Below, piece after piece: positions 17,316 through 39,101 of a stretch of DNA of 64,000 nucleotides; the stretch's first letter is position 1; each line of letters opens with the position of its first letter. A model generated the notes under the pieces. The model worked only from the letters and a program-made list of their open reading frames with translations. It ran no database searches and had not been told where the DNA came from. Source of the stretch: an uncultured Candidatus Saccharibacteria bacterium. Lineage in GTDB: Bacteria > Patescibacteriota > Minisyncoccia > Portnoybacterales > UBA2143. The stretch lies in NCBI GenBank assembly GCA_964596615.1, contig CAZQUN010000002.1, positions 11,332-75,331 on the forward strand, given 5' to 3'. The position numbers and the translations under genes are program-made.

Positions 17316-17909
17316 ATGACCAAATCTAAAATTCTTCTCTATCTCTGCCTTTTGTATATCTTCGGTGTCTTTGCTTATTCCCTGGTTGAGAGTCCTCAAC
17401 CTTTTTTATTTAACCAAACAGACAAAGAAACCGTTTTAAAGGGAATCATTGTTGGTGAACCAGAAAAAAGAATTAACCAACAGAAGTTTGAATTTAAGGC
17501 AGAAAACATTGAGGGGAAAGTCTTGATTACCACAGAACTATACCCAAGTTATTTTTATGGAGACGAATTAGAAGTTTTTGGTAAATTACAGGAACCAGCA
17601 GTTTTTGAAGATTTTGATTATCGTCAGTATTTAAGAAAAGATAAAATTTATTCAGTTATTTATTATCCTCAAATTAATCGGCTGGCAGGAAACCAGGGTA
17701 ATTGGTTTTATCAAAGGATTTTTAACTTCAAAGACAAATTGAGAAATATTATTGAACAAACTTTACTTCCTCCTCAATCGTCTATTTTAAAAGCAGTTTT
17801 TCTGGGAGACAGATTTAGCCTTTCAGATGAATTAAAAGAAAAATTAAATATTACTGGTACTCGGCATATTGTTGCTATTTCCGGGATGCATATACCTATA
17901 ACTCCATAG
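17316..17909 (+). pseudogene. comEC: ComEC N-terminal fragment (DUF4131 region through the start of the competence domain), interrupted by an inserted element
   Basis: Ends ...GTRHIVAISGMHI, which is the conserved HLLAISGLH entry into the ComEC competence domain. The continuation is found at 31248 after the 13.4-kb insertion. Confidence 0.8.
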
Positions 17910-17916
17910 CTACAAT

Positions 17917-18960
17917 TTAAGAAAGAATATTGTATTCATCCTCTTTAGCGTCTTCTAGGATTTTTAAAAATTCGTCAAATTCCTTCTTCTTTTTGTTTAT
18001 TATATCCTCTAACAATTCTACTTTTAAATCTCTTAAACCTTTGGGCATATTTGGATCTAGATCAAAACCAATTAAGAAAATATCAATAATCTTAATTTTG
18101 GGATTGTGTCTTTCTATAATCCCTTTATATCCTAAAACTTGGCCAATATGTTCTGCTTTTATTTTTATGATAGGCCTTTTTAATTCAGCTAAAACAATAT
18201 GGTTTTCGTCTTGCAAGTACATCTTAACTATTAAATCTGGTTTTTTCCCGAGTTCGGGGTCTTTCTTTATGTTTTGAGCAAGATAATCACTTAATGGTTT
18301 ATTGCTTTTTACTAAATCATAGTTATTATCTAGTAACCATAGGTTATTTTCTAACAGTTTATGAATCTCTCTTTCTTTCGTATCTTTTTGTTTCATTAAA
18401 CTTTCTAATAATTTAATTATTGATATTTTCTTTTGAATAAGTTCCGCTATAGAATTAATTTGATGAATTTTTAATTCATTTAAAAGCGAAACGAAGCCAG
18501 TCAATTCATCTCCACCTGCCTCAGATAATTTTTTTAACAAAAAATCAAGATTTTCTGCCTTGATTTCATAAATTCTTAGTCCTAGTTTGTCCAACGCCTC
18601 AAAACTTGCCTCGGTTAAATTGCTTATATTTTTATTTGATAGTATTTTTTGCAGAAAATCGGGATCACTTTTTAAGGTTGCATCTATATTTTTTAAAATT
18701 TCTACTTCAGAGGATGTCATCTTTTTAATAGGCCATTGATGTTCTTTTGTGGTTTCTGACTCAATAACGCTTTTTAACATACTCCAATCTTTAAGATGAA
18801 GATTAAAAAATTGTTGTTTTCCTCCGGGTTTTCCTTGCAATGTTCTGTTCATAATTATGTAATTTCTATCTGCGTGTTCCATATCGCTAACCACGGAAAA
18901 TGACGTAAATCCGCTAGACCATTTCTTTGTTATTTTTTTAATTACTTTAAACTTACTCAT
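17917..18960 (-). CDS. PD-(D/E)xK nuclease, Shedu (SduA)/DUF4263-like
   Basis: C-terminal NLWLLDNNYDLV...KKPDLIVKM...VLAELKRP...IGQVLGY gives RecB-like motifs D, ExK and QxxxY. Confidence 0.4.
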   Translation of the reverse strand: MSKFKVIKKITKKWSSGFTSFSVVSDMEHADRNYIIMNRTLQGKPGGKQQFFNLHLKDWSMLKSVIESETTKEHQWPIKKMTSSEVEILKNIDATLKSDPDFLQKILSNKNISNLTEASFEALDKLGLRIYEIKAENLDFLLKKLSEAGGDELTGFVSLLNELKIHQINSIAELIQKKISIIKLLESLMKQKDTKEREIHKLLENNLWLLDNNYDLVKSNKPLSDYLAQNIKKDPELGKKPDLIVKMYLQDENHIVLAELKRPIIKIKAEHIGQVLGYKGIIERHNPKIKIIDIFLIGFDLDPNMPKGLRDLKVELLEDIINKKKKEFDEFLKILEDAKEDEYNILS

Positions 18961-19159
18961 AAAAAATTTGGTTTATTTCAGATGGCTCGTTTATATGCGA
19001 ATTTCAACAATTGACTTTTCTATATCTCTATCCTACCACAACAATATCTATTTTTAATATTTAACTCACATCCTTAATACACCGGCCTGTAGGGCTATAG
19101 CTACAGCTTTAGAGAAATGATTGCATTTTTATCTTAGTATCCAATACTGAAATGGTTTA

Positions 19160-19597
19160 TTAATCATTTTTTATTTTTGTTTTTGAGTTTATTCCGACTC
19201 CTGGCCCATATTTACCCATTGGTACATCATGTAGTTCATTTGGGAATTTATCAATGAGTTTTTTTATTATTTTCTTTGAATAGTCGTCTTTTGCATCCCA
19301 TTCTGTGGTAAGGTGATGGTAGCTACGATGAGGACCATGTCTCTCTAAATAATTAACAAGCCTTGTCTTTCTTCGCCAAGCTTTTATCTCTCGCCATAAA
19401 AAATAAATTAATAGAAGCCAAAGAAAAAGAAATATGATTACAACATACGATTTCCAGGATTGTGGAAATAAAATAATCCATTTATTGATTGTTGATGGGA
19501 GGATAAAAATTAGAAGTATAACTACTATATGTATTGGTTTATTCTCAACTATTTCTAGAATTTCTTTTATATTTTTAATGTTATTATTTTCATTCAT
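19160..19597 (-). CDS. hypothetical membrane protein (3 TM) with a basic cytoplasmic tail
   Basis: ORF and hydropathy only. Confidence 0.35.
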   Translation of the reverse strand: MNENNNIKNIKEILEIVENKPIHIVVILLIFILPSTINKWIILFPQSWKSYVVIIFLFLWLLLIYFLWREIKAWRRKTRLVNYLERHGPHRSYHHLTTEWDAKDDYSKKIIKKLIDKFPNELHDVPMGKYGPGVGINSKTKIKND

Positions 19598-19770
19598 GAT
19601 TGTATATTTAAATTAGTCACAATAATCGATTTTTTTACATCTCTAAGCTTTATATTACCATGGTGATAGATATTTTCAATATTCTTAATCTACATACCTA
19701 TGACTCTATAGCTACATAACCTGCAGAAAACAATAAAATAGGACAATTAAAATTGATCAGACTTATCAAC

Positions 19771-19799
19771 TTGCTGTGTAAAGAATTGTAAAGTATAAT
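19771..19799 (+). promoter_or_regulatory. sigma70-like promoter upstream of the methyltransferase gene
   Basis: TTGCTG, 17-nt spacer, TATAAT, 7 nt before the ATG region. Confidence 0.45.
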
Positions 19800-19805
19800 G
19801 GAGAC

Positions 19806-20936
19806 ATGAACAACAAAATAAAATATTATACAGCTCAAGAGCTTGCAAAAGAATTAAGGGTGAACATAATGACAATCTATCGTTATGTTAAGGCTGGCAA
19901 GCTTAAGGCCCATAAAATAGGTAAGGAATTTAGAATCTACAAAGAAGAATTTGATAGATTTTTAAACGAGACAAAAATTGATAAAAGAGAAAAAAATCCT
20001 AAGAAAGTTAAAAAATACGGCCTCGATTTAGGTAAACGAGGTATTTATGATATTAGAAATCCATTAAATGATTTGACTGGTCGAGAATGGATCTATTTTT
20101 TAAACTCTATTCGTGTTACCGATTTTTCTACTGATGAGAATGAGTTGGAGCTATGGAAATACTTACAAAATTCTTTGATAGAAACTAGATATTCGACAAA
20201 TGGCAAAGATTCATTCGCTCATGATTTAAGAAAAATACATCCTTCGCCAAAGCCACCACAATTGATGAAAGAATTGATAGAATTTTTTACAAAAAGAAGT
20301 GGTTATATTTTAGATCCATTTATGGGGGTGGGGGGAACTCTACTTGGAGCATCGTTATCTAAGAGAAAAGCTGTTGGGATCGATTTGTGTAAAAATTATA
20401 TTGATGTTTATAAAAAAGCTACAGAAAAATTAAACTTAAAAGAACAAACTACTATAGTAGGCGATGCTAGAAATATCGACAAGTATCAACAAACAAAATC
20501 TAAGCTTTTTGATGCCATTATTACAGACCCACCATATGCTAATTTACTATCGAAGAAACGTACTGGAGGGGACAGAACAAAAAAGATAGGCACATCTACG
20601 CCCTTCACAGATAATCCACTAGATCTGGGGAACTTTGACTATAAAGATTTCCTGCCTGAATTTAGAAAAATAATAGAAAGACTCTTATTAAGCTTAAAAC
20701 CGAAAGGATATTTTATTACATTCATAAAAGATCTTCAGTCAAATGAAACGCACCATAATATGTTACACGCAGACATAGTAAACGAGTTAATAAAAATATC
20801 TGATCTTTCCTACAAAGGATATAAGATTTGGTACGATAAGACAATTAACCTATATCCTTATGGTTATCCTTTCTCTTTTGTGGCTAATCAATTACATCAA
20901 TTTATCCTAGTATTTAGAAAAGAGAGAAAAAAATGA
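19806..20936 (+). CDS. DNA methyltransferase (N6-adenine or N4-cytosine) with an N-terminal excisionase-type HTH
   Basis: N-terminal MNNKIKYYTAQELAKELRVNIMTIYRYVKAGKLKAHKIG (HTH_17/Xis-like). Then motif I DPFMGVGGT and motif IV ITDPPY. Confidence 0.7.
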   Translation: MNNKIKYYTAQELAKELRVNIMTIYRYVKAGKLKAHKIGKEFRIYKEEFDRFLNETKIDKREKNPKKVKKYGLDLGKRGIYDIRNPLNDLTGREWIYFLNSIRVTDFSTDENELELWKYLQNSLIETRYSTNGKDSFAHDLRKIHPSPKPPQLMKELIEFFTKRSGYILDPFMGVGGTLLGASLSKRKAVGIDLCKNYIDVYKKATEKLNLKEQTTIVGDARNIDKYQQTKSKLFDAIITDPPYANLLSKKRTGGDRTKKIGTSTPFTDNPLDLGNFDYKDFLPEFRKIIERLLLSLKPKGYFITFIKDLQSNETHHNMLHADIVNELIKISDLSYKGYKIWYDKTINLYPYGYPFSFVANQLHQFILVFRKERKK

Positions 20937-21973
20937 GATTTATAGGGAATAAACAAAAGCTATTAGAATTTATACTTTCTAAGATCAGAGAGCATAAGAT
21001 TGGTCGTGGGATATTGATTGATATATTTTCAGGAACAACTAATGTCGCGAAATTTTTTAAGAGATTGGACTATCCGGTTATCTCGAATGATCTTTTATGT
21101 TTTTCGTATATATTCCAACGAGCGTATATCCAAAACAATCGACAACCTCTTTTTAGGGGATTAAAGAAGATAGTTAATCAGTCTTCTCTATCTTCTGTTA
21201 TTGAGTGTTTAAATAGCCTAAAAGGTGTTGAGGGTTTTATGTACAACAATTTCACAAAAGGGGGCACTTCGAATAAAGAATATAGTAGGAATTATTTAAG
21301 TGAAGAAAATGCAAGGAAAATTGATGCCATCAGAGATAAAATCGAGCAATGGAAAATAAAAAAAATAGTCACAGAAGAAGAATACTTTATTTTATTAACC
21401 TCTTTGATTGAGGCAGTCCCATATGTATCTAATATTGCTGGAACCTATGGGGCTTTTTTAAAAATAGACGATCCCAGGAAATATAAACCTTTAACTTTAA
21501 AGAATCCTGAAATTATTATAAATAAAAATAAAAATTTTGCTTTCAATGAAGATGGGAATGAACTAATTAAAAAAATAAAAGGCGATGTTCTTTATATAGA
21601 TCCGCCATATAATTCAAGACAATACGCTCCCAATTATCACCTTTTAGAACACATTGCAATATGGGATAAAAAGGTTATGGATAATAAAACAGGATTAAGA
21701 GACTATAATAAACAGAAATCCTTATACTGTGCTAAAAATAAAGTTTACCATGTGACTCTGGATCTAATCGAAAAAGCCATAAACAAAGCCCAGGTAAAAC
21801 ATATCTTATTTAGTTATAATAACGAAGGATTATTAGAGGATTATCAAATTAAGGAAATCTTTGATAAGTTTGGAAAAGTTTATTTTTATAAAAAATCATA
21901 TCCCAGATTTACACATCGAAACAACCACAGAAAAAATACTGAAGAATATCTATTTTATTTATCTGTTCAGTAA
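20933..21973 (+). CDS. Dam-family (D12 class) N6-adenine DNA methyltransferase
   Basis: DIFSGTTNV (motif I), YIDPPYNSRQYAPNYHLLEH (motif IV and downstream Dam box). Start overlaps the upstream MTase stop. Confidence 0.7.
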   Translation: MRFIGNKQKLLEFILSKIREHKIGRGILIDIFSGTTNVAKFFKRLDYPVISNDLLCFSYIFQRAYIQNNRQPLFRGLKKIVNQSSLSSVIECLNSLKGVEGFMYNNFTKGGTSNKEYSRNYLSEENARKIDAIRDKIEQWKIKKIVTEEEYFILLTSLIEAVPYVSNIAGTYGAFLKIDDPRKYKPLTLKNPEIIINKNKNFAFNEDGNELIKKIKGDVLYIDPPYNSRQYAPNYHLLEHIAIWDKKVMDNKTGLRDYNKQKSLYCAKNKVYHVTLDLIEKAINKAQVKHILFSYNNEGLLEDYQIKEIFDKFGKVYFYKKSYPRFTHRNNHRKNTEEYLFYLSVQ

Positions 21974-23335
21974 TTTTTCTATTTTATTTAAAAATTTAGC
22001 TAAAGTCTTAAATATAAATACCTCACCTTTTTCTGTTAAAACAAAAATTACATGTTCATTTGTTATTTGTTTGCCGTATAATACTATCCCTCTTTTAAGC
22101 TTATAGCTGGGATATAAAGGTTTTAAGCATTCGGTCTCAAAAGCTAGAAAAGTCTTTAAATCTTTTAATGCTTTTTTTAGTTTAGCTGTTATCTTGCCTT
22201 CCAAAGAATAAATTTCTTTATTGTAGTCATCTCTTAAAACTAAATCTGGTAAATTAACTATCCCTTTTCTTTTATTCCTCTCAATATATTTATGAACAAC
22301 AATTGGATTCCCCTTCAAATCATATAAATATCCTCTTTCGCAACCAGCGTGATTTTCATATATTGGGATAATATCTGTGGTACGCAAAGAAAGCATATGA
22401 AGCAAGATGGTGGCTAATTTTTCTGATTTATTCTCATATTTCCAATATGATTCAGGGAGATCCATTTTAGGAATTTCCAATTTTTCTAGTTCGATATGCA
22501 AGGCATTCGCAATAAGAATGAATTTATTCGAGTGCGATACATGTCTTTGTTTTAGTCCGTGATGTGTGATTATTATTCTACCCTTCCATCCTAATATTCT
22601 CAGCGTCTTCGAAATTAAAGTTAAAGCACCAATATTTGGATCATGAGATAGACTATCGCTTTTAATTAATCTCCCGCTTATATAGATGGCGTTATTAGTC
22701 TTTTTGATTAATATAGGAACATTACCTCTTGGTGGTTTTCTCATTTTATTTTTCACTTCGATTACTTCTTTAATCGATTTAAATGGGGTGGGTTTAAAAA
22801 GGCTACTGCTTTTTCCAAACATCTCAACGCCTATCGTCAATAATAACTTAGTCCCAAATATATTTGTGTCTGTCGGCTTTCTGCTCTCCTCAACTTGTAA
22901 ATTATATAACATGATTTTTCTTATGGTTGGATAATAAATATCTATAAAAACAAATTTTGATGCTCTTTGAAAAATTCCTGTATTTCTTGACTCAATATCT
23001 CCTGTTTTGGTTTCTTCAACGACTAAAATAGGTTTTTGCGTTGGGCTAGGAGGACCAATCCCTTCATATATTAGAAAATCCACAAAGCTGCTATCGCCGC
23101 TTACGATCTTTAACAGAATATCAGATCTTCCTCTAATTCTTACATTATCTATCCTATACAAATGAGCAAAAATACCCTTATTAAAAATAGGGTTAATTAC
23201 TGCGTTGCCTTTAGCTCGAAGATTTAAATTCTTCTGTTCAGCATAAAGCCCAAGTATTTTTTCTATAATCTCCGGCTTAGGCCGTTCCTCGCATAAAATC
23301 CAAGTTTTTATTTTATTTGTGGTAGACATATTCAA
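21959..23335 (-). CDS. putative Type II restriction endonuclease (PD-(D/E)xK-like core near the C-terminus)
   Basis: Convergent with and overlapping the Dam-like MTase; PDLVLRDD...EIYSLEGK fits PD...ExK; no other recognisable domain. Confidence 0.4.
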   Translation of the reverse strand: MNMSTTNKIKTWILCEERPKPEIIEKILGLYAEQKNLNLRAKGNAVINPIFNKGIFAHLYRIDNVRIRGRSDILLKIVSGDSSFVDFLIYEGIGPPSPTQKPILVVEETKTGDIESRNTGIFQRASKFVFIDIYYPTIRKIMLYNLQVEESRKPTDTNIFGTKLLLTIGVEMFGKSSSLFKPTPFKSIKEVIEVKNKMRKPPRGNVPILIKKTNNAIYISGRLIKSDSLSHDPNIGALTLISKTLRILGWKGRIIITHHGLKQRHVSHSNKFILIANALHIELEKLEIPKMDLPESYWKYENKSEKLATILLHMLSLRTTDIIPIYENHAGCERGYLYDLKGNPIVVHKYIERNKRKGIVNLPDLVLRDDYNKEIYSLEGKITAKLKKALKDLKTFLAFETECLKPLYPSYKLKRGIVLYGKQITNEHVIFVLTEKGEVFIFKTLAKFLNKIEKLLNR

Positions 23336-23413
23336 AATTAAACCTCGCTTTTACTTAACCTTAACAATTTTTTATAACAGCGTCTATATCTTGGCTACTA
23401 TAGACTATCAATA

Positions 23414-23443
23414 ACAAAAGCCCGGCAATGGGCTTTTCTTTCA
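23414..23443. terminator. bidirectional intrinsic terminator
   Basis: AGCCCGGCAATGGGCT hairpin flanked by A-run and T-run. Confidence 0.5.
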
Positions 23444-23501
23444 ACTTTGAAGATATTAGTTACTTAAATAAAAGGGCTTTACTTTTTATTTAATGATAAA
23501 T

Positions 23502-24107
23502 TTATCTATTTTCAGTGGGTCCGAGTTTTTTTATATGATCTCTTGGTCTAACGAACTTACTTCTATTCAAAACAACAATTTCATAATTTCTAGCCATAGG
23601 TTCGCCAAAATGAATTTTTATATATTCTCCTAATCCAAACGGAAAATTTTTATCGTAGTTATTTATGCCGTAGCCGATGGGGAATTTGCTAAAAATTGGG
23701 TGAAAAGCGCTGAACTCGTAGCCAACTGGAAGCCAAGATGATCGCCTCGGGTGATATGGATGAAGATATAAAATATCCCAGTGTTTGCCATTTTCGCAAA
23801 CGGTCTCATAAATATCAATAGGGCCGTTAACTTTGCCGCTTTTTGTAGATCCTAATCGATGGTACATAAGACCAGTACCACACTTGCATCTCAATCTATT
23901 GATATATTTCATCTCGCCAATAGCGCCGTTAACAGGAATAGAATTAGCGGCGATGCGACCAAAGTCCTGTTCACTGTCTATCAAAGAATCACAATCCCTT
24001 CCCTTTATGGCTAATGGATATAAACCGGGGATCTCTTTTTTTAGGTCTTGCTCCTGATCTTCAAGGGACTCATCAATAAATTTTTTCTTAAATAAATTAA
24101 AAAACAT
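23502..24107 (-). CDS. hypothetical protein (201 aa)
   Basis: ORF only; Cys-containing; no recognisable motif. Confidence 0.35.
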   Translation of the reverse strand: MFFNLFKKKFIDESLEDQEQDLKKEIPGLYPLAIKGRDCDSLIDSEQDFGRIAANSIPVNGAIGEMKYINRLRCKCGTGLMYHRLGSTKSGKVNGPIDIYETVCENGKHWDILYLHPYHPRRSSWLPVGYEFSAFHPIFSKFPIGYGINNYDKNFPFGLGEYIKIHFGEPMARNYEIVVLNRSKFVRPRDHIKKLGPTENR

Positions 24108-24110
24108 ATA

Positions 24111-24344
24111 TTAGATCTTCGTCTTTTTTTCTAAACTATTTAATTCTCGATATAGATCCTTTAATTCTATTTCCAGTAAGCCAGAAAGTTCTTTTAAATT
24201 AACGACTTCTCTCCTTATGTCTCTTTTTAAGATGCGGAGAATACCGAAGGGATAAAGTAGTTCTGATATCCTTTTATTATATTCTTCTCTTTGCTTTTCC
24301 AAGAACATAATTTTCCGTTTTACTTTTTTAATTCTATTATTCAT
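24111..24344 (-). CDS. hypothetical coiled-coil protein (77 aa)
   Basis: ORF only. Confidence 0.3.
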   Translation of the reverse strand: MNNRIKKVKRKIMFLEKQREEYNKRISELLYPFGILRILKRDIRREVVNLKELSGLLEIELKDLYRELNSLEKKTKI

Positions 24345-24384
24345 GTTTTAAGCTAACTCGTTGATATTTAGGAGATGGATAGAA

Positions 24385-24528
24385 TTATTTACACCAGTAT
24401 TCACAACCTTGTTCAGTCCTTTGAGCGGCATTGTAGGTTCTGTAATCGGTAATAAAAATCCAGATCGAGAAAACTACCAAAGTCGTGACTCCTAATAGAA
24501 GTAGAATTAATTGTAGCCAGTCCTTCAT
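24385..24528 (-). CDS. small hydrophobic peptide (47 aa) ending GCEYWCK
   Basis: Hand translation MKDWLQLILLLLGVTTLVVFSIWIFITDYRTYNAAQRTEQGCEYWCK; one TM helix; not in the ORF track (shorter than 60 aa). Confidence 0.3.
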   Translation of the reverse strand: MKDWLQLILLLLGVTTLVVFSIWIFITDYRTYNAAQRTEQGCEYWCK

Positions 24529-24828
24529 GGTTTTTTACAATGGGAATACACAAAGCCCCGCGCTAGCTAGGCCTTGCGGCCCTATAGCCCTTTCGGGATA
24601 TAGCCCATCACTGAGTTGCTGAACGCGGGGTCCAGTATCAGTGATGGGTCTTTTACGCCATGCCCTAAAAGGGTTTAGGTCATTTAGTTGTTATTTATAA
24701 CTTACCACAAGTTTTATTGGAATGGAAGCGATAAAAGGGGATATCTAATATTTTAAACAAATATTGAAAGAAGGCTTAGAACGGGATAAAATAAAGGAAA
24801 TTACAATGATAATTATTCTAACATTACG

Positions 24829-25695
24829 ATGATCACAGGAGTAAAATTTGATTCAGGAGTAAAATTTGATTGGGAGAATCTTTCCTCAGAAAATCTTAAA
24901 ATCGCCAGGAAGGTTATTAAGGTTATTTCAGATTTTTTACAATTTCAGCCAATGGGCAGATTCTCACCTTATACTGTAATACCATTACAAAGATTCGAAG
25001 AAAAACGGATATGTATAGACGATATAAACATGGTATTGGATAAAATAGATGATATAAAGGTTAGTAACGACGAATTGCGCTATGAAATAAAATATCATCC
25101 ACAACGAATTCTAAGGTGGTTTTATGGAAATTTTACCGATGATGGTTTATTTAACGTCCCACCAGAAAAGATACTCAAAAATTACATTTTTCTACAAATA
25201 AGTTCGATAAGCGATCTTCGTCGAGTACAGGGCTTGATCGATGAAAGACTTAAAATAGACTCCAGGCAAAAAGAAGAAATACTATCTCCTAATTATCTAA
25301 AATCAATACACCTTATTACTAAGTCTCTTGAGCCGACCGATGTGATATTCCTAGTTCTTGATGAGCGTTTTGAATATCCTATAAGAAGCGTAGTATGGCA
25401 CAAAGGCAATCCTACATATGTCAAAAAACTATATGATATTGCCTATTTTGTGGATGTTCCAAATAAAAAAGTTAATTATGGTAAAAATATAGCTAATAGC
25501 ATTAACAACGGGTTATTTAGAAAAAGGCCAGTGGCAGAATATATGGAAACAAATAAATTCAAAAAGCCAACGCTTGTACAAAAATCAGAAAATAAAACTT
25601 TGGTTTTAAAAAATGAAATTCTTGTAGAAACAGGTCTTATTCATAATAAAGTTCCGAAACAATATCAATATCTTTATATAGATAAAACAAGATAG
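24829..25695 (+). CDS. hypothetical protein (288 aa)
   Basis: ORF; followed by a terminator. Confidence 0.4.
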   Translation: MITGVKFDSGVKFDWENLSSENLKIARKVIKVISDFLQFQPMGRFSPYTVIPLQRFEEKRICIDDINMVLDKIDDIKVSNDELRYEIKYHPQRILRWFYGNFTDDGLFNVPPEKILKNYIFLQISSISDLRRVQGLIDERLKIDSRQKEEILSPNYLKSIHLITKSLEPTDVIFLVLDERFEYPIRSVVWHKGNPTYVKKLYDIAYFVDVPNKKVNYGKNIANSINNGLFRKRPVAEYMETNKFKKPTLVQKSENKTLVLKNEILVETGLIHNKVPKQYQYLYIDKTR

Positions 25696-25734
25696 TGTTC
25701 GTATATCATTAAACTTGGGAGTTGGTCGTATGCT

Positions 25735-25762
25735 AAAAACCGCTTTAATAAGCGGTTTTTTT
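25735..25762 (+). terminator. intrinsic terminator
   Basis: AAAAACCGCTTTAATAAGCGGTTTTTTT. Confidence 0.65.
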
Positions 25763-25830
25763 CATTTGTTCTTCGACTGGTCGGATAGATATAATAATAG
25801 CAAATAAATTACTGATCTAATAAAAATTAT

Positions 25831-26091
25831 ATGACCCAAAAACAAATGGATGATACAAAAAATTATTTTCACAGCCACGACATTGGACTGGTTGCTTATT
25901 TGCTTTGTCGAAATTTTGAATTAGTCAGCCTGGATAAAGTCATGAAAAATAAGGTGCTTTTCATTCTGAAAAGGACCAATAGGATAGACATAGAAATAAA
26001 GAAATATTGGGATTTTAATTCATTAGTTGATGCCCAAACTTATTTTAATCAACTAAAGAGGTTAAAAAATCAAATCTTTAGTTCAGAGTGA
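25831..26091 (+). CDS. hypothetical protein (86 aa)
   Basis: ORF only. Confidence 0.3.
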   Translation: MTQKQMDDTKNYFHSHDIGLVAYLLCRNFELVSLDKVMKNKVLFILKRTNRIDIEIKKYWDFNSLVDAQTYFNQLKRLKNQIFSSE

Positions 26092-26343
26092 CTTATGTCG
26101 AATAACAAAATACAAAACGATTAATAGATTTATGACTAGCCAACAAAAGTTTAAAGTTAAAATCAAATTCAATAAAAATATCTCCAAAAAAGAAAGAAAG
26201 AAAAGGCTGCGAAATGTTTTCGATACATTGTTCTCTAAAGGAGATAGTAAAGAAACTAAACTGAACCTTGGTACTGGTTTGGGGTTCCGGCAGGACATGC
26301 AAACTCCCTGGAAACCAGAGCTAGTACTGGGGCTTACGCAGGG

Positions 26344-27141
26344 ATGCCAAAAAGAAGAATGATCGACGCTAATAGATTATATGGGGATACAGAACTGATT
26401 GAAAATATCGGTAAGGATGGGTTGTTGCTCTATATTCTACTTTGGTCAATGTCAGAGGATTTCGGTGCTTTCGAGAATAACCCAAAGCAAATCCATTATG
26501 AGTCAAAAGGGGTAAGATTGAGTGTGAAGAAAATACAAGAATATTTAGAAACACTAGAAAGATTAGGAAAAATTATTCTTTATAGAGTCGATGACAAAGA
26601 ATACTACTGGCTTAAGAATTTTTTTAAGTATCAGAAATTATCTAATGCTTCGCTTCCCAATCTACCTCTACCTGAATGGATTAAGTATAAAGAGTGTCAA
26701 TATCCAGGCGGTAGAAAGTATGCTCAATATAATGTAGATACCGAGAAACTACCTGTAGCCTACATGAAGCCTGTACGAGGCATAGTCGAAAAAGAGAAGC
26801 GAAAGAGAAGCGAAGATAAAAGAAAGGAAAATAAAAGAAGCGAAGAGGGAAAAAAGTTGTCATTCGACAATAATAACGAGCAGTCGTCTTTAAATAGATC
26901 TAATAATATCGCTGAACCGCTTACTTGTAAATCAAAGGAATTCAAAGTTAGAGAGATAGCCGAAGAATTAGGAGAAGTCGATCCGATCAAATCTACCAAA
27001 GTTTGGTTAGGGAAATATGACTACTCTTTAATTAAAAGAACCTGGGAAATTTATGGAAAGCGAACTGAAACTAAAACAATTAAAAACTGCCCCGCCTATT
27101 TCAATAGTTTACTAGAAAAATTACATAGTGAGCGAAAGTAA
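26344..27141 (+). CDS. hypothetical protein, possible replication/regulatory function (Lys-rich linker)
   Basis: ORF lying between the cargo genes and the terS-like gene; no confident motif. Confidence 0.35.
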   Translation: MPKRRMIDANRLYGDTELIENIGKDGLLLYILLWSMSEDFGAFENNPKQIHYESKGVRLSVKKIQEYLETLERLGKIILYRVDDKEYYWLKNFFKYQKLSNASLPNLPLPEWIKYKECQYPGGRKYAQYNVDTEKLPVAYMKPVRGIVEKEKRKRSEDKRKENKRSEEGKKLSFDNNNEQSSLNRSNNIAEPLTCKSKEFKVREIAEELGEVDPIKSTKVWLGKYDYSLIKRTWEIYGKRTETKTIKNCPAYFNSLLEKLHSERK

Positions 27142-27156
27142 ATCCTATTTATTTTT

Positions 27157-27666
27157 ATGAGTAAAGGCGAAAAAATTAAACTATCACCCCAGCAAGAATT
27201 GTTTTGCCAGCTTTATATTAAAGATTATTTTGGCAATGGAGTTAAATCATACATCATTGCCTATAAGAAGGAATTTCCAATAGATGTTGAGTATCGATAT
27301 TTAAATCCAGACGAAAAAAAACGATATGATTCCTATGCTGTCCGGGCCGCTCAACTATTAAGAAACCTTAAGATGGTTAAGCGCATAGGAGAATTACTCG
27401 ATGAGCATATTGAGGATGCAGTAGTAGATAGAGAAATGATAGCGGTTATTCTCCAGAAGGAAGATTTGACCGCGAAGATGAGGGCGATCAGCGAATATAA
27501 CAAAGTCAAACAACGAATCATTTCTAAATCTGAGATTGAGAAAAAAGTAATAAAGGTCGACAAAACAAGTAAAGAGTTTAAGGAGTATAAACAATGGCGA
27601 TTAGAGAAGAGAAAATTAAAAGAAGAGAGCCAGGAGAGGTTGGCCCGAAAGAAGAAAAAGAAATAG
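27157..27666 (+). CDS. phage terminase small subunit-like protein
   Basis: LSPQQELFCQLYIKDYFGNGVKSYIIAY resembles the conserved N-terminal TerS (Terminase_2) motif L-x-QE-FC-x-Y. No terL, portal or capsid genes are present. Confidence 0.5.
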   Translation: MSKGEKIKLSPQQELFCQLYIKDYFGNGVKSYIIAYKKEFPIDVEYRYLNPDEKKRYDSYAVRAAQLLRNLKMVKRIGELLDEHIEDAVVDREMIAVILQKEDLTAKMRAISEYNKVKQRIISKSEIEKKVIKVDKTSKEFKEYKQWRLEKRKLKEESQERLARKKKKK

Positions 27667-28009
27667 TAAAGGAGTACTTTAATCGGTTTCGTCTATCTAA
27701 GGAGCAGCAAAGGGAAGTCCTTGTGAGAATGATTGCCGAGTTGCGATTGGATATAACGATTTCTTTAGAGGACCAGTTTTGCTTAAAAAGGAACAAGAGA
27801 AATAAAAAAACCGTTTAGGCTATTTAGTTTCTCATATTTGATTCTTGCTTGCTTATTCCGTCTGCCTATTTCTTAAGAAGCTCTCTAATTCCTTTTCAGA
27901 AATACGACATGACTTTAATAGATGGTTATATTTATCATAAAAAAAGAAAGAATAAAATCAATTAAATATACCAATATGATACCAACAAAAACCCATAAAA
28001 TAAACTTTT

Positions 28010-28195
28010 TCATTTTCTTTTATTTAAAAACTTTTCTAATTCCTTTTTCTCGATTCTAAAATTCCGCTCAGTTAATTTAATCGCTTTTAATTTACCCGAA
28101 CGAATATAGCGCCAGACGGTTTCGTTGCACACATCTAGTAATCCAGCGATCTCTTTCGGGGTATAGTATCCTTTTTTGAGTTTTGTTTTGGCCAT
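28010..28195 (-). CDS. excisionase/Xis-family HTH DNA-binding protein
   Basis: YYTPKEIAGLLDVCNETVWRYIRSGKLKAIKL is the HTH_17 pattern; divergent from the recombinase gene. Confidence 0.7.
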   Translation of the reverse strand: MAKTKLKKGYYTPKEIAGLLDVCNETVWRYIRSGKLKAIKLTERNFRIEKKELEKFLNKRK

Positions 28196-28333
28196 GTTTT
28201 CATTATAGGAGTCGAGTAAGAGAAAGTCAACTTTTGTCTACTCTATCCATAGTCAACAACACTTGACAGGGGATAACTGGTAAGTTAAAATTAAGACAAG
28301 TATAGTCAACAAGAGTCAACACAATAATCTTTT
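28196..28333. promoter_or_regulatory. xis-int divergent intergenic region with five AGTCAAC-type repeats
   Basis: AAGTCAAC, TAGTCAACAA (twice), AGTCAACAC and an inverted TTGACAG. Confidence 0.4.
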
Positions 28334-29911
28334 ATGACAAGCATGTCAAAAATTAAAGCAGTCGTATATGCTAGGGTTAGTTCTGATGAACAGAAAAAGA
28401 AGGAATTTAGTATTCCCAAAATTCAGATTCCTGAATGTATCAATTATATCAAAGAAGAGGGTTGGCTGTTTGCTGGATCCTATGTGGACGAAGGCTTTGA
28501 TTGTAATGCTTTTGAAAAAAGAGCCGAACTTCAAAGAATGCTTAACGGAGAAACGGATAATTATGATGTGGTTGTCGTTTGGAGCTATGACAGATTAGTC
28601 GGTGATGATGAGAATACCCGGGGCCAAATCTACCATATTTTAGACAGAAACAAAAAACAGATAACTTCGGTCAGACAAAGAGCAAGGATAGTCCCAATTG
28701 ACCAGTATGACCCTAAGAGCTTAGATGTCGCTCAAAGGAGACAAATTACTGATATAGGGGTCAGTTTTGATAGAAAGATTAGGAGGGAGAGGTTTATGGA
28801 ATCAAGAGCCAAGACAGTGGCTAATGGCAGGCATATCTCAGAGCCGCCGTATGGTTATAAACTGATTAGGAAGGTTCACCCAGAGGATAAAAGGAGAACT
28901 ATTGGTTATCGATTAATCAATGAGGATGAATCATTAATTTTAGAAAGGATATTCAAAGAGAGGGCTACTGGCAAGAGTTGTAGGAGGATTGCTTTTGGCC
29001 TAAACGATGATGGAATCAGAACTAGAAAGGGTAAAAATTGGACCAACGCCAGGATAACCTATCTTTTAAAAAATTCTTATCCTTGCGGTCTAATTACTTG
29101 GAATAGGACTACCCAGAGGAAATATGGCGACGAACAGGTAAGAACCTACATCCCAGAAGAAAAATGGCAGTATTTCCCGGTTAATACGGCGGTAGAGAAG
29201 TATTATAAGCCGATTATTAGTAAAGAGTTGTTTGATAAAGTTCAGGAGATTAGACAAAGAAATAGAACAGTGTTAAGAGGAAGCGCTTCGTATAGTAGTA
29301 ATTTTTTGGCCGGTCTTCTGAAATGTCCTGTCTGCGGTCGGCCAATGGTAGAAGCTAGTTTTCGTAAACTCAAGAAAAGCATTCTAAGTTATTATATTTG
29401 TTCTTCTCGTCATAATGACGGGGTTTGTAAGAATAAGAAAAGGATAAGAGCGCCGGAATTGAAAGAAGCAGTGCTTAAAGAGGTAATAAAATACCTGAAT
29501 AATCCAGGCGAGTTTAGAGAATACCAAAAGCAGCAGAAAAAAGATGTGCTTAAGAGAGCGGAGAGAGAGGTACTTATCTATGAGAAAAGATTAGCGAAGA
29601 TGAGATCAAGGATTCATTCGCTGAATTTAAAGTTTATAGATGGAAAAATCAAGGATAGTTATTACAAGCAATTACTGGCCAGTTTAGAAGAAGATGAAGA
29701 AGGATTAAAGAAAATTGTTTCTAGAGAAAAAGAAAAGGTAGAGGATTTTAAGAAAAAAAAGGGGACTATAACGAAGTTAAAAGTATTAAGCAGGGATTTT
29801 CGAAGAAGATTTATGGAGCTGGATAATGTTAAAAGAAAACATATTTTCCATACTTTAATTAGGGAGATAAAGGTTCAGGATGATGAGGTAAAAATATTTT
29901 TTAAGGTTTGA
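28334..29911 (+). CDS. large serine recombinase (resolvase/invertase-type catalytic domain plus recombinase and zinc-ribbon domains)
   Basis: N-terminal AVVYARVSSDEQ catalytic Ser motif; 525 aa; C-terminal CPVCGRPM...C zinc ribbon and coiled-coil. Confidence 0.85.
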   Translation: MTSMSKIKAVVYARVSSDEQKKKEFSIPKIQIPECINYIKEEGWLFAGSYVDEGFDCNAFEKRAELQRMLNGETDNYDVVVVWSYDRLVGDDENTRGQIYHILDRNKKQITSVRQRARIVPIDQYDPKSLDVAQRRQITDIGVSFDRKIRRERFMESRAKTVANGRHISEPPYGYKLIRKVHPEDKRRTIGYRLINEDESLILERIFKERATGKSCRRIAFGLNDDGIRTRKGKNWTNARITYLLKNSYPCGLITWNRTTQRKYGDEQVRTYIPEEKWQYFPVNTAVEKYYKPIISKELFDKVQEIRQRNRTVLRGSASYSSNFLAGLLKCPVCGRPMVEASFRKLKKSILSYYICSSRHNDGVCKNKKRIRAPELKEAVLKEVIKYLNNPGEFREYQKQQKKDVLKRAEREVLIYEKRLAKMRSRIHSLNLKFIDGKIKDSYYKQLLASLEEDEEGLKKIVSREKEKVEDFKKKKGTITKLKVLSRDFRRRFMELDNVKRKHIFHTLIREIKVQDDEVKIFFKV

Positions 29912-30361
29912 TTAGTTTTGTCCCGGTGTTGTAAGGAGAAAGTCATATCCAGTATGGATAACTATCGCCGCGATAAGTCCTAGAACAGGCCTTTTTCTTT
30001 TTATAAAATAGCAGATAATCATAGCGGTAATAATCTGGAGTATTGTAGGGGATATACGGACGCTTAGACTATGAACATCTCCTCTGGCAAGGTGCCGAGT
30101 AAAAGATTCTATTCCAGACCAACCCAGTCCAAAGGAAATGCTATAAGGGTTTTCTATTTTCCAACTTTTGATAGATAGGAACTTGCCTAGTTCTTCAGAA
30201 AGTCCGTTAAATAAAGATTCTGTCAGGTGGGCCGATAAAAGAGGCAAGCTACCTAAAGCGTTAAGGCCTGTTATCCTGATAATAAATTCAAAGACTAGGA
30301 ATAGTATTCCGAAGCCGATTATGCCTGCGAGAAAAGCGATCAGAGTATTAATTAGACGCAT
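29912..30361 (-). CDS. CPBP-family (CAAX protease / Abi) intramembrane metalloprotease
   Basis: Multi-TM; conserved C-terminal ...AAIVIHTGYDFL motif region of the CPBP/Abi family. Confidence 0.6.
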   Translation of the reverse strand: MRLINTLIAFLAGIIGFGILFLVFEFIIRITGLNALGSLPLLSAHLTESLFNGLSEELGKFLSIKSWKIENPYSISFGLGWSGIESFTRHLARGDVHSLSVRISPTILQIITAMIICYFIKRKRPVLGLIAAIVIHTGYDFLLTTPGQN

Positions 30362-30409
30362 TGTTATTTCAGGTTATAATTTACTGAGATGACAAAGTTC
30401 AGATATTTT

Positions 30410-31162
30410 TTAAGGTTTAGCCGAAAAAGATATTGTGTCCTGTCTTTGTTCCAATTTCTTTTCTAAAACCTTTGATATTCCATATTTATACAAATCCTGT
30501 CCAAGCTTTGTTATTGAAAATCGATTCCCATTCCTAAAAGCTATTCCGCTAGCAGAACACAAAGCTTCCATTTCCCAATAATCAAAATCTTTATTTGTTT
30601 CTTTCAATAGTTTGCTAAGCTCATTTATTTTACCGCCACTATTTAAGTAAAACTTAAATTCTGCTCTTGATAAAATAGCTAGATAATTAAATGTTGACTC
30701 TTGAAGGCTTTTCAAACAACTGACAAGCGAGGTAAAACGCTCCCAGTCAATTTTTTTTGATATATAGGCACTGAATAGGTAGGCTAAAATCCTAGATTTT
30801 TTTACTGAGTCTAAGTCTTCGATTATAACTAAAATTTGCTCGGTAATTTTATTTCTGAACTTTTTGTTCTTCTTAAAATTATGTCTAAATTCTTTTAAGG
30901 CTTCTTTGTCTACTTTGTTTGACTTAAACTCACTAAGAAATATCAAAAATTTTTTAATAAAAAATCTTTCTTTCACGGCAACGCCAGTTTTAATAATAGC
31001 AACTAGTGTTTTTACGACCGGAGCCTCTTTTAATAAATCAACATCGAGAAGATTGTCGAGTCCAATTTCGGCATAATCTTTGCTAACATCTAAGCTAGGA
31101 TTAATAATCTCTTTTGAAATATTATTCATTAAAATGTTGTTCATTCTTTTTTTGAGAATCAT
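30410..31162 (-). CDS. hypothetical protein (250 aa), possibly defence-related partner of CPBP
   Basis: ORF; Lys-rich; no confident motif. Confidence 0.35.
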   Translation of the reverse strand: MILKKRMNNILMNNISKEIINPSLDVSKDYAEIGLDNLLDVDLLKEAPVVKTLVAIIKTGVAVKERFFIKKFLIFLSEFKSNKVDKEALKEFRHNFKKNKKFRNKITEQILVIIEDLDSVKKSRILAYLFSAYISKKIDWERFTSLVSCLKSLQESTFNYLAILSRAEFKFYLNSGGKINELSKLLKETNKDFDYWEMEALCSASGIAFRNGNRFSITKLGQDLYKYGISKVLEKKLEQRQDTISFSAKP

Positions 31163-31247
31163 ATGATTAATTGTGTTTAATTGTTATTAATGATAGTCGA
31201 ATCTTGGAAGAGTAGCAAGTGTTGATTGTTGCCATGGAGTAAGCGGT

Positions 31248-31976
31248 ATGCATATGATTATTATGACCCAAGTTCTTTTATTCTTGGCCTTGGCAATTGG
31301 CCTTTGGCGAAACCAGGCCTTTTATTTTGTCCTAATTATCTTAATTCTTTATATTACCATGATTGGCGCTCCGGCTTCGGCAGTCAGAGCCGGAATTATG
31401 GCCGGATTACTTTTATTAGCTCAAAAAGTTGGTCGCTTACGGAGTGCCAACAGAGCAGTCGTTTTTGCTGCGACAATTATGCTCCTAATTAATCCGCTTT
31501 TATTAAAATCTGATGTTGGTTTTCAATTATCTTTTGTGGCAGTCCTGGGCATTATTTATTTAAAACCCATTTTTGATCAAAAAATATCCAAGTGGCCCAA
31601 CCCATATTTTCTAAAAGATATTTTAACAATGACTTTGGCTGCCCAATTATCAACTCTGCCTATTTTAATTTTTCACTTTGGCCGCCTTTCTTTAATTTCT
31701 CCTTTAGCTAACTTATTAATCGTCCCTTTATTGCCTTTAATAATGATATCAGGAATAATTTTAGTTTTTTCCGGTTTAATTTGGCTGCCTTTGGCTAAAA
31801 TTATTGCTTGGCCAGCCTGGCTTTTATTGAGTTATGTTATTAAAATTATTGATTATCTTTCATTGTTTCCAATACCAGCAATTGAATTTGAAAAAGTTTC
31901 TTTAATAATCCTATCTCTTTATTACCCAATCCTATTATTTTTTATTTGGAGAAATATAAAGGAGCAGGTCTCTTAG
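31248..31976 (+). pseudogene. comEC: ComEC competence-domain fragment (continuation of 17316..17909)
   Basis: MHMIIMTQVLLFLALAIGL...GAPASAVRAGIMAGLLLLA...GFQLSFVAVLGI matches Competence-domain (PF03772) TM signatures. The ATG is part of the ATGCATAT junction repeat. Confidence 0.8.
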
Positions 31977-32012
31977 ATTAAGCCCTGCTCCTTTCTCGGG
32001 TGGTTCCGAGTT

Positions 32013-32669: not shown

Positions 32670-32834
32670 GTCAATCTCCTTTTCTGTACTGGGTTTGGGT
32701 TTATGGTTAAAGTTAAAGACCAATATGGTTTAATCTAATATTGCTATAGAAAATAATTTTTGTCAAGATTTGGGATAAAATAAAAAAGCAGGGTTGTTGT
32801 TAACCCTGCCTATTGGGAGATATTTTCTCCCATT

Positions 32835-33068
32835 TTAACCTCCTTTCTGTTCCTGTTTTACGACGATCAAAGGATATTCAGGCTCTGTAATACTTTTGAA
32901 CAGCTCTATCAGAATTTCGCTAAGATCGAATTTCTCCATCTCTTTTGCCTCCTCTTCTCTCATCTTAGCGATGAAATCCGAGATTTCTCCAGCCGTGGCT
33001 GGAGACACCAGAGATAAGAAAATGACGGAGAAAAGAACGATAACTGTGATAACTGCCATGCCTTTCAT
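32835..33068 (-). CDS. small secreted protein
   Basis: Strong RBS GAGGAGG; signal peptide MKGMAVITVIVLFSVIFLSLVSPATAG. Confidence 0.4.
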   Translation of the reverse strand: MKGMAVITVIVLFSVIFLSLVSPATAGEISDFIAKMREEEAKEMEKFDLSEILIELFKSITEPEYPLIVVKQEQKGG

Positions 33069-33192
33069 GCAAGGTACCTCCTCTTCAAATTTAACCCAAA
33101 TCCGTAATGCCATATTTATATCACATAACCTATGACTTGTCAATGTTTTTGCTTTAGTTTAATAAATTCTTTTTAGGTGATAAAATGTATAT

Positions 33193-39066: not shown

Positions 39067-39101
39067 CCACGAGACCTTAAATATATTCTACCACACTTTC
39101 C

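What the first reader, a model, noticed from the sequence alone, without database searches (positions are those of the whole stretch)
17917..18960. Shedu/DUF4263-like PD-(D/E)xK nuclease as the left-end cargo of the element
The 347-aa protein has a C-terminal module with NLWLLDNNYDLV, PDLIVKM, AELKRP and IGQVLGY. These match nuclease motifs II, III and QxxxY of the RecB/restriction-endonuclease fold as found in the Shedu (SduA, DUF4263) anti-phage family. Patescibacteria are reported to have few known defence systems, so a Shedu-like gene carried on a mobile island would be a worthwhile candidate defence system. The family assignment is from motif memory, not a database search.
Basis: inference. 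Interest (0 to 1): 0.55.

Follow-up and report, generated by a model that had tools for sequence, protein, structure and literature searches.

The report
Divergent Shedu nuclease on comEC island
The 347-aa gene is a real, well-conserved but divergent relative of the Shedu anti-phage nuclease, carried at the very edge of a 13.4-kb mobile island that splits the comEC gene of a Patescibacteria (CPR) bacterium; this is a new example of a known kind of system, not a new kind.

Summary
ORF 17917-18960 (-) encodes 347 aa, and all four quoted motifs are present. Their key residues are invariant in homologues down to 34% identity.

- Pfam SduA_C scores just under threshold (24 vs 27 bits), and the PADLOC SduA hit is weak.
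- A nuclease-only family profile ranks B. cereus Shedu first among all PDB sequences (E=3.3e-4) and pairs motifs I-IV residue for residue.
- HHalign against canonical DUF4263 gives 97.2% probability (E=4e-11) over the whole domain.
- Foldseek ranks Shedu first, then NucS/EndoMS.
- The domain plan matches type I Shedu: a bbbba N-terminal domain (possibly Whirly/PUR-like), a helical linker, then the nuclease.

The gene has no conserved neighbour. It recurs next to integrases and other defence genes, mainly in CPR genomes.

It is the left-end gene of a 13,362-bp serine-recombinase island in comEC. That island also carries a complete Type II R-M system.

By sequence, the nearest named relatives are the C-terminal halves of GHKL-ATPase restriction enzymes (BbrUII/HgiDII).

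Defence function is inferred, not shown. The premise that CPR are poor in defence systems is only partly true. Verdict: new member of a known kind, modest interest.

The parts
17917..18960 (-). Complete 347-aa Shedu-like (SduA-like) gene; GC 28.8%
   Evidence: ORF. 36 homologues. Purifying selection and GC content.
18745..18960 (-). N-terminal domain, aa 1-72. Predicted b-b-b-b-a fold, candidate nucleic-acid sensor (PC4/Whirly/PUR-like).
   Evidence: AF2 model has strands 5-14, 17-25, 34-41 and 50-55 and helix 56-70, pLDDT 74-81. Foldseek finds PUR-alpha, WHY2 and SP_0782 over 62-83 columns with weak E-values. The domain is specific to this ~345-370-aa family and absent from the GHKL fusions.
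18391..18744 (-). Alpha-helical linker, aa 73-190
   Evidence: All-helical in the model, with lower confidence. The linker profile is shared with 37 of 152 relatives. It corresponds to the linker described in both Shedu structure papers.
17941..18390 (-). PD-(D/E)xK nuclease domain homologous to DUF4263/SduA_C, aa 191-340
   Evidence: The domain model has pLDDT 89.9 and pTM 0.84. Foldseek top hits are 8ti8 and 8ti9. hmmsearch against PDB ranks Shedu first. HHalign gives 97.2% probability, E=4.2e-11.
18373..18375 (-). Motif I glutamate, E196
   Evidence: Invariant. Aligns with B. cereus E204.
18235..18237 (-). Motif II aspartate, D242 (in RPD/KPD)
   Evidence: Invariant. Aligns with B. cereus D249.
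18178..18186 (-). Motif III, E259-L-K261
   Evidence: Invariant. Aligns with B. cereus E264/K266.
18127..18141 (-). Motif IV, Q274-xxx-Y278
   Evidence: Invariant or near-invariant. Aligns with B. cereus Q295. Lies ~16 residues closer to motif III than in B. cereus.
17886..17893 (.). attL crossover core ATGCATAT (left island boundary)
31248..31255 (.). attR crossover core ATGCATAT (right island boundary). Island length is 13,362 bp.
   Evidence: The joined flanks restore ...HIVAISGMHMIIMTQ..., identical to intact ComEC homologues.
17316..17909 (+). comEC 5' fragment (DUF4131 plus Competence profile positions 2-34)
31248..31976 (+). comEC 3' continuation (Competence profile positions 31-265)
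28334..29911 (+). Large serine recombinase of the island (Resolvase + Recombinase + Zn_ribbon_recom)

Best explanation
The gene encodes a divergent type I Shedu (SduA-like) immune nuclease. It is a single polypeptide with three parts: a small N-terminal b-b-b-b-a domain, a long helical linker, and a C-terminal PD-(D/E)xK nuclease homologous to DUF4263.

Shown here: the homology, the intact catalytic motifs, the three-part domain plan, the absence of a conserved partner gene, and the gene's position at the left edge of a 13.4-kb serine-recombinase island inserted in comEC of a Portnoybacteria-like CPR bacterium.

Inferred by analogy with B. cereus and E. coli SduA: the protein assembles through its nuclease domains into a tetramer that is kept inactive or target-restricted by the N-terminal domains. 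When those domains meet a nucleic-acid feature typical of invading phage or plasmid DNA (single-stranded DNA or free DNA ends), the nuclease nicks or cuts that DNA. This would protect the host, and with it the island. On this island it would act alongside, but independently of, the island's own Type II restriction-modification system.
For: Family assignment:
- Pfam SduA_C E=4.8e-5 and PADLOC SduA E=2e-4.
- 21/27 orthologues and 38/104 distant relatives hit SduA_C. Relatives P0034 and P0035 pass the gathering score.
- The nuclease profile ranks B. cereus SduA first in PDB (E=3.3e-4), ahead of EndoMS and NucS (0.08-0.1), with E/D/ExK/Q paired to E204/D249/E264/K266/Q295.
- HHalign against canonical DUF4263 gives 97.2% probability, E=4.2e-11, 133 columns.
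- Foldseek top hits are 8ti8 and 8ti9, then NucS/EndoMS. Gu et al. report the same neighbour order.

Architecture: NTD, helical linker and nuclease, as in both Shedu structure papers. At 347 aa it is close to the type I mean of 386 aa. The nuclease core is shared by 150/152 relatives with varied N-termini.

Standalone and defence-like context: no conserved neighbour in seven contexts. Neighbours include integrases or recombinases (L005, L009, L010, L017) and TIR, SMODS+SLATT, HEPN_AbiV and Fic genes.

Other points: the island has its own REase_II (E=1.8e-60) and two MTases. The gene is under purifying selection. The island is real.
Against: - The window protein itself is below Pfam's gathering score and covers only ~20% of the PADLOC SduA model, so standard pipelines would probably not call it.
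- Single-sequence and family-only profiles found nothing in PDB.
- Foldseek scores are modest (E~2e-3, TM ~0.49).
- The best curated hit by E-value is a restriction-enzyme family (NF050001).
- The Whirly/PUR-like call for the N-terminal domain rests on weak Foldseek E-values (0.08-0.4) from a medium-confidence model.
- No oligomer, nuclease activity or phage protection was or could be tested.
- Two homologue contexts (L007, L011) are plain housekeeping neighbourhoods.
Confidence: 0.65

Rival explanations
1. It is a solitary restriction-type endonuclease: an HgiDII/BbrUII-like C-terminal cleavage module without the GHKL ATPase. It would cut DNA according to sequence or modification state, possibly under the protection of the two methyltransferases next to it on the island.
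For: The NCBIfam BbrUII/HgiDII model is the best curated hit for the window protein (E=6e-8) and is hit by 86/104 relatives (best 1e-70). Two Type II MTases lie 0.85-3 kb away. Gu et al. propose that some Shedu proteins act like restriction enzymes.
Against: The score is 31.6 bits against a 550-bit cutoff, and only the C-terminal 146 of 659 profile positions match. There is no GHKL domain. The island already has a cognate REase_II convergent with the MTases. None of the six other homologue contexts has an adjacent DNA methyltransferase. The sensor-like N-terminal domain and linker are conserved instead.
Confidence: 0.15
2. It serves the mobile element or DNA repair rather than immunity. Examples would be a NucS/EndoMS-like structure-specific nuclease, or an addiction or exclusion toxin that stabilises the island or competes with other elements.
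For: NucS and EndoMS are the next-best fold and sequence matches. The gene sits at the extreme end of the island. Elements often carry exclusion genes at their ends (general knowledge).
Against: No NucS_C hit for the window protein, and only 2/104 relatives hit it weakly. The patchy distribution in unrelated contexts argues against a housekeeping repair role. The other island genes do not travel with it, so it is not a core island function. No antitoxin-like partner is conserved.
Confidence: 0.12
3. It is an inactive relic or a non-catalytic DNA-binding protein.
For: Nothing specific. Function is untested.
Against: All four catalytic motifs are intact and invariant across the family. Purifying selection is strong. 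The length is the same as in all orthologues.
Confidence: 0.03

Closest known systems
Shedu SduA, type I / Type 1A (B. cereus B4264 SduA, PDB 8ti8/8ti9; Gu et al., bioRxiv 10.1101/2023.08.10.552793)
   Same: A single-gene system with the three-part plan: small N-terminal b-rich domain, helical linker, C-terminal DUF4263 PD-(D/E)xK domain. Motifs I-IV pair residue for residue (E196/D242/E259/K261/Q274 with E204/D249/E264/K266/Q295). It is the best fold and sequence match in PDB. The size is similar (347 vs 380 aa).
   Different: About 14-18% identity. Falls below Pfam's gathering score. Has ~16 fewer residues between motifs III and IV. The linker+nuclease module is closer to the GHKL-fused clade. 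The host lineage (Patescibacteria) is not among the phyla listed by Gu et al.. Whirly-like identity of the N-terminal domain is not firmly shown. Oligomeric state and activity are unknown.
E. coli SduA (Loeff et al., bioRxiv 10.1101/2023.08.10.552762)
   Same: Type I layout: N-terminal sensor, alpha-helical linker, DUF4263. [quoted passage not shown]
   Different: The E. coli N-terminal domain (1-145) is larger and reported to have no structural homologues. It was not among the top 50 Foldseek hits here. Nothing here shows end sensing.
R.HgiDII / R.BbrUII Type II restriction enzymes (NCBIfam NF050001), equivalent to the GHKL-ATPase 'Type 1D Shedu' of Gu et al.
   Same: Their C-terminal ~150-280 residues (linker plus nuclease) are the nearest named sequence relatives (E=6e-8 for the window protein; 86/104 relatives hit the model; P0034/35 at E=1.8e-21 to the window protein).
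   Different: Those enzymes are ~600-660 aa with an N-terminal GHKL ATPase and a cognate methyltransferase. The window protein lacks the ATPase and has a different N-terminal domain. In other genomes it has no cognate MTase.
NucS / EndoMS mismatch endonuclease (PDB 2vld, 5gke)
   Same: Second-closest PD-(D/E)xK fold. Also has an N-terminal DNA-binding domain followed by a C-terminal nuclease.
   Different: No NucS_C family hit. The window protein has a long helical linker. NucS is a vertically inherited repair enzyme, whereas this gene is patchy and associated with mobile elements.

Membership tests
Shedu (SduA, DUF4263 / PF14082) | C-terminal domain homologous to DUF4263 over its whole length | tested here: met
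   HHalign of the family nuclease profile against B. cereus-type DUF4263: probability 97.2%, E=4.2e-11, 133 columns. hmmsearch against PDB: SduA ranks first, E=3.3e-4. Foldseek: 8ti8 and 8ti9 rank first, prob 0.98-0.99.
Shedu (SduA, DUF4263 / PF14082) | Operational criterion: Pfam PF14082 score at or above the gathering threshold (27 bits) | tested here: not met
   24 bits, E=4.8e-5, and only profile positions 2-55 of 159 aligned. PADLOC SduA scores 18 bits. This is a curated cut-off, not a biological property. The shortfall is explained by a ~16-residue difference between motifs III and IV. Relatives P0034 and P0035 reach 28.3 bits.
Shedu (SduA, DUF4263 / PF14082) | PD-(D/E)xK motifs I (E), II (D), III (ExK) and IV (Q) present at equivalent positions | tested here: met
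   E196, D242, E259/K261 and Q274 are invariant. They align with E204, D249, E264/K266 and Q295.
Shedu (SduA, DUF4263 / PF14082) | Type I architecture: variable N-terminal domain, alpha-helical linker, C-terminal nuclease | tested here: met
   Secondary structure of the AF2 model. The domain-specific profiles show a shared nuclease core and a family-specific N-terminal domain.
Shedu (SduA, DUF4263 / PF14082) | Single-gene system with no obligatory conserved partner, found in variable or defence regions | tested here: met
   Seven distinct contexts share no neighbour. Integrases and TIR, SMODS/SLATT, HEPN and Fic genes are nearby.
Shedu (SduA, DUF4263 / PF14082) | Homotetramer formed through the nuclease domains | not testable with these tools
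   No multimer prediction or biophysics is available.
Shedu (SduA, DUF4263 / PF14082) | Nuclease-dependent protection against phage or linear DNA | not testable with these tools
   Requires experiment.
Shedu Type 1A (sPC4/Whirly N-terminal domain) | N-terminal domain of the sPC4/Whirly fold | tested here: inconclusive
   The b-b-b-b-a topology fits. Foldseek lists PUR-alpha (prob 1.0, E 0.085), WHY2 (prob 0.9) and the PC4-like SP_0782 (prob 0.84), but E-values are weak, the model pLDDT is 74-81, and the aligned region was not shown.
BbrUII/HgiDII restriction enzyme (NCBIfam NF050001) | Equivalog score of at least 550 bits over the full 659-position model | tested here: not met
   31.6 bits, profile positions 430-575 only.
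BbrUII/HgiDII restriction enzyme (NCBIfam NF050001) | N-terminal GHKL (HATPase_c_3) ATPase domain | tested here: not met
   No HATPase hit in the window protein. The GHKL-fused relatives do not share its N-terminal domain.
BbrUII/HgiDII restriction enzyme (NCBIfam NF050001) | Cognate adjacent methyltransferase | tested here: not met
   The island MTases pair with their own REase_II. The other homologue contexts have no adjacent DNA MTase.
NucS/EndoMS | NucS_C / NucS family HMM match | tested here: not met
   No hit for the window protein in Pfam or NCBIfam. Only 2/104 relatives hit weakly.

The most novel reading that the evidence does not exclude
The ~345-aa CPR proteins and their more than 1,700 cluster-level relatives, including the GHKL-fused HgiDII-type enzymes, form a distinct sister family to canonical DUF4263 that current defence finders miss. 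In this reading the CPR form is a minimal, ATPase-free derivative whose small N-terminal domain senses a DNA structure, for example incoming single-stranded DNA. Patescibacteria would then hold a sizeable undetected layer of Shedu-like immunity, here carried by an element that also switches off DNA uptake by splitting comEC.
Probability: 0.2. Interest if true: 0.5.

Novelty: new member of a known kind. Interest (0 to 1): 0.3.

Why it matters
The finding extends Shedu-type immunity to Patescibacteria through a clade that falls below Pfam's gathering score and gives only a weak, partial PADLOC SduA hit. This is a concrete example of the 'undetectable' defence content that defensome surveys of CPR suspect. 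It also ties the C-terminal domain of R.HgiDII-type restriction enzymes, left unassigned in 2008, to the DUF4263 nuclease fold. The compact 347-aa protein with a small N-terminal domain would be a convenient minimal model for how Shedu sensors gate the nuclease. None of this changes how Shedu is understood. It is an incremental addition.

Tried and rejected
- Single-sequence phmmer against PDB, and profiles A1, A3 and A4 against PDB, gave no significant nuclease hits. Only a broad nuclease-only profile reached Shedu.
- tblastn against plasmids gave no match.
- The PHROG hit (phrog_6203, E=1e-20) has no annotated function.
- The viral fold library gave only generic PD-(D/E)xK or RPB5-like matches.
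- Supplements of two Shedu papers are not held, so no canonical sequences came from there.
- Seeding with the B. cereus fragment returned only three canonical relatives, so the template profile is thin.
- I considered that the protein is a truncated GHKL-nuclease, because some 605-aa relatives aligned from profile position ~5. I rejected this: a strict N-terminal-domain profile does not match the GHKL fusions, and all 33 orthologues share the same start and length.
- I considered the upstream 145-aa membrane ORF as a partner. I rejected this because it is absent from all other contexts.
- I considered the gene as the REase of the neighbouring MTases. I rejected this because a REase_II is already present.
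- The promoter/terminator scan was at or below chance.
- dN/dS could not be computed because synonymous sites are saturated.

Full report
**Observation.** The window holds one ATG-initiated ORF at 17917..18960 on the minus strand, 347 aa.
- All four quoted peptide strings are present at aa 206-217, 241-247, 258-263 and 272-278.
- The gene is AT-rich: 28.8% GC, against 32.6% for the island and 39% for both flanks.
- A search of 5.8 billion proteins returned 36 relatives. Of these, 33 are full-length (340-367 aa) at 34-77% identity.
- In a 27-sequence alignment, E196, H200, W208, D242, E259, K261, P263, Q274 and Y278 are invariant.
- Against the closest homologue's coding sequence, synonymous sites are saturated (pS 0.82) while pN is 0.126. 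The gene is therefore under purifying selection.

**Direct family tests.**
- Pfam gives SduA_C (PF14082) as the only meaningful hit: E=4.8e-5, 24 bits against a 27-bit gathering score. Only profile positions 2-55 of 159 are aligned.
- PADLOC gives SduA at E=2e-4.
- PHROGs gives an unannotated 644-position family.
- Across the family, 21 of 27 orthologues hit SduA_C weakly.
- The single sequence and the family profile found nothing relevant among PDB sequences.

**Structure.**
- AlphaFold2 on the family alignment gave a three-part protein: strands 5-14, 17-25, 34-41 and 50-55 plus helix 56-70 (pLDDT 74-81); an all-helical, lower-confidence linker to about residue 190; and a confident C-terminal a/b domain (pLDDT 85-94).
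- Foldseek of the whole model against PDB put the B. cereus Shedu cryo-EM structure first (8ti8, prob 0.99, E=2e-3). It also listed PUR-alpha, Arabidopsis WHY2 and the PC4-like SP_0782 over 62-83 columns.
- Folded alone, residues 165-347 reached pLDDT 89.9 and pTM 0.84.
- For that domain, the PDB ranking was 8ti8 (TM 0.49), the 8ti9 Shedu nuclease octamer, NucS 2vld, Kpn2I and EndoMS.
- Gu et al. report EndoMS as the closest structural neighbour of Shedu, so the neighbour order matches. The scores themselves are modest.

**Wider family.**
- An exhaustive profile search of 1.84 billion cluster representatives found 1,756 relatives at E<=1e-3, and 77 at E<=1e-30.
- Among 104 of the best hits, 40 carry an N-terminal GHKL ATPase (HATPase_c_3) and 38 hit SduA_C (best E=6.5e-8). 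A few hit HSDR_N, VRR_NUC or NucS_C.
- 86 of the 104 hit the BbrUII/HgiDII model, best E=1e-70.
- Two GHKL-fused relatives (P0034, P0035; E=1.8e-21 to the window protein) pass Pfam's SduA_C threshold at 28.3 bits. These correspond to the GHKL 'Type 1D Shedu' of Gu et al..
- Orlowski and Bujnicki left the R.HgiDII C-terminal domain unassigned in 2008.
- Domain-specific profiles show that the nuclease core is shared by 150 of 152 relatives and the linker by 37. The N-terminal domain occurs only in the ~345-370-aa family, not in the GHKL fusions.
- This is the Shedu design: a common nuclease core with variable N-terminal domains.

**Decisive homology tests.**
- I built a nuclease-only profile from the window protein and 33 diverse relatives at 19-38% identity. 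E, W, P, D, E, K, Q and Y are invariant.
- Searched against all 177,635 distinct PDB sequences, this profile ranked B. cereus SduA first (8ti8, E=3.3e-4; 8ti9, E=7.4e-4). EndoMS (0.08) and NucS (0.096) came behind.
- The printed alignment pairs E196, W208, D242, E259/K261 and Q274..Y278 with chain residues E206, W218, D251, E266/K268 and Q297..Y. With the chain's +2 offset, these are the published catalytic residues E204, D249, E264, K266 and Q295.
- B. cereus carries about 16 extra residues between motifs III and IV. This explains why Pfam's alignment stops at profile position 55 and the score falls short of threshold.
- I used the printed B. cereus segment to collect three canonical PF14082 proteins.
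- HHalign between the two profiles then gave probability 97.2% and E=4.2e-11 over 133 columns. This covers the whole domain, including the last strand and helix.
- I therefore regard homology of the C-terminal domain to DUF4263 as shown. Pfam-threshold membership of the window protein itself is not met.

**Context in the window.**
- The ORF 17316-17909 (+) is the start of comEC (DUF4131 plus Competence profile positions 2-34). The ORF 31248-31976 (+) continues it at profile positions 31-265.
- Both junctions share the core ATGCATAT, at 17886 and 31248.
- Joining the flanks gives ...HIVAISGMHMIIMTQ.... This is identical to intact 430-440-aa ComEC proteins of Candidatus Portnoybacteria and other Patescibacteria, which reach up to 85% identity over 99% of the length.
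- The island is 13,362 bp. It carries a large serine recombinase at 28334-29911.
- It also carries a full Type II R-M module: an HTH-fused N6/N4 MTase (19806-20936), a D12 MTase (20933-21973) and a REase_II (21959-23335, E=1.8e-60).
- It further holds a DUF5659 protein and a small-terminase-like protein.

**Context elsewhere.**
- Seven distinct homologue contexts share no neighbouring gene.
- Nearby genes include tyrosine integrases (L005, L009) and serine recombinases (L010, L017).
- They also include a TIR-TPR protein, HNH, HEPN_AbiV and Fic (L003), and SMODS+SLATT plus Fic (L009).
- Two contexts are housekeeping neighbourhoods (L007, L011).
- No other context has an adjacent DNA methyltransferase. 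The other island genes do not co-travel with the gene.
- In GTDB representative genomes, full-length orthologues occur in Saccharibacteria, Adlerbacteria, Doudnabacteria and 'Patescibacteria group' MAGs. A few MAGs carry other labels.
- This is the behaviour of a self-contained, horizontally moving defence cassette.

**Mechanism.**
- Shown: a catalytically intact DUF4263-type nuclease behind a helical linker and a small N-terminal domain, with no partner gene, on a mobile island.
- Inferred from B. cereus and E. coli SduA: tetramerisation through the nuclease domains; inhibition or targeting by the N-terminal domains; activation or substrate capture by phage-type nucleic-acid structures; and nicking or cleavage of the invader.
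- The b-b-b-b-a N-terminal domain, with its PUR/Whirly/PC4-like matches, suggests single-stranded nucleic-acid sensing as in Type 1A. This step is weakly supported.

**Rivals.**
- A restriction-type role tied to the island MTases is disfavoured. The island has its own REase, the protein has no GHKL domain, and homologues elsewhere have no MTases.
- A NucS-like repair role or an island-maintenance role is disfavoured by the patchy distribution, the lack of NucS family hits and the lack of co-travelling island genes.
- An inactive relic is disfavoured by the intact motifs and purifying selection.

**Novelty and interest.**
- Shedu is known to be very diverse, to be carried on mobile elements, and to include Whirly-type and GHKL-type forms.
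- CPR bacteria are already known to carry many defence systems per Mb, although few per genome (PMC12259885).
- What is new is modest. This is a CPR-centred clade that sits below Pfam's gathering score and gives only a weak PADLOC hit, has a compact motif III-IV spacing, and is closest to the HgiDII-type nuclease module.
- I rate it a new member of a known kind, with interest of about 0.3.

Noticed in passing
17886-31255: A 13,362-bp island is inserted in comEC with ATGCATAT cores at both ends. The reconstructed attP has imperfect dyad symmetry. The insertion splits the Competence domain, so DNA uptake is presumably disabled while the island is integrated. This resembles the serine-recombinase elements that interrupt comK or sporulation genes in Firmicutes (from general knowledge).
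   Followed up: partly
19806-23335: A complete Type II R-M module: two methyltransferases and a convergent REase_II. The pattern suggests an asymmetric (Type IIS-like) site. The first MTase has an N-terminal HTH_17/excisionase-like domain with weak PADLOC mad1/mad2 hits.
   Followed up: partly
27157-27666 and 25831-26091: The 169-aa protein is 39% identical to a Terminase_2 (small terminase) protein next to the Shedu-like gene in L009. A DUF5659 protein lies nearby. The island has no capsid genes, so it may be a phage-satellite-like or phage-derived element.
   Followed up: partly
19160-19597 (-): A 145-aa predicted membrane protein lies 200 bp upstream on the same strand. It has weak PADLOC hits (CARF_TM and 1TM effector, E~1e-3). 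It is not found next to homologues elsewhere, so it is probably not a partner.
   Followed up: partly
Relatives P0034-P0036, P0041 and others (not in the window): About 600-aa GHKL-ATPase fusions share the linker+nuclease module and match the BbrUII/HgiDII restriction-enzyme model. This links the R.HgiDII C-terminal domain, unassigned to any fold in 2008 (PMC2441816), to the DUF4263 nuclease.
   Followed up: partly
31248-34056: The host comEC seems naturally split. The Competence-domain ORF ends at 31976, and the metallo-beta-lactamase domain is a separate ORF at 33193-34056. Two minus-strand ORFs (32013-32723 and 32835-33143) lie between them.
   Followed up: no
29912-31162 (-): Two right-end island ORFs have no clear family. 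One is a 149-aa membrane protein with faint intramembrane-metalloprotease (YhfC/PrsW) similarity. The other is a 250-aa protein with a faint PADLOC SspB hit.
   Followed up: no
L009:7312-10033 and L003:6038-18030: The homologues' neighbourhoods hold other defence-type genes: SMODS+SLATT_4 and Fic in L009; TIR-TPR, Fic, HNH and HEPN_AbiV in L003. L003 comes from a complete 1.14-Mb Saccharibacteria genome. These look like small defence islands in CPR-type genomes.
   Followed up: no
38750-39070 (-); L003:753-1019; L005:7530-7796: Small GIY-YIG ORFs (88-106 aa) occur in the window and within 10 kb of the Shedu-like gene in two other genomes. Their significance is unknown.
   Followed up: no
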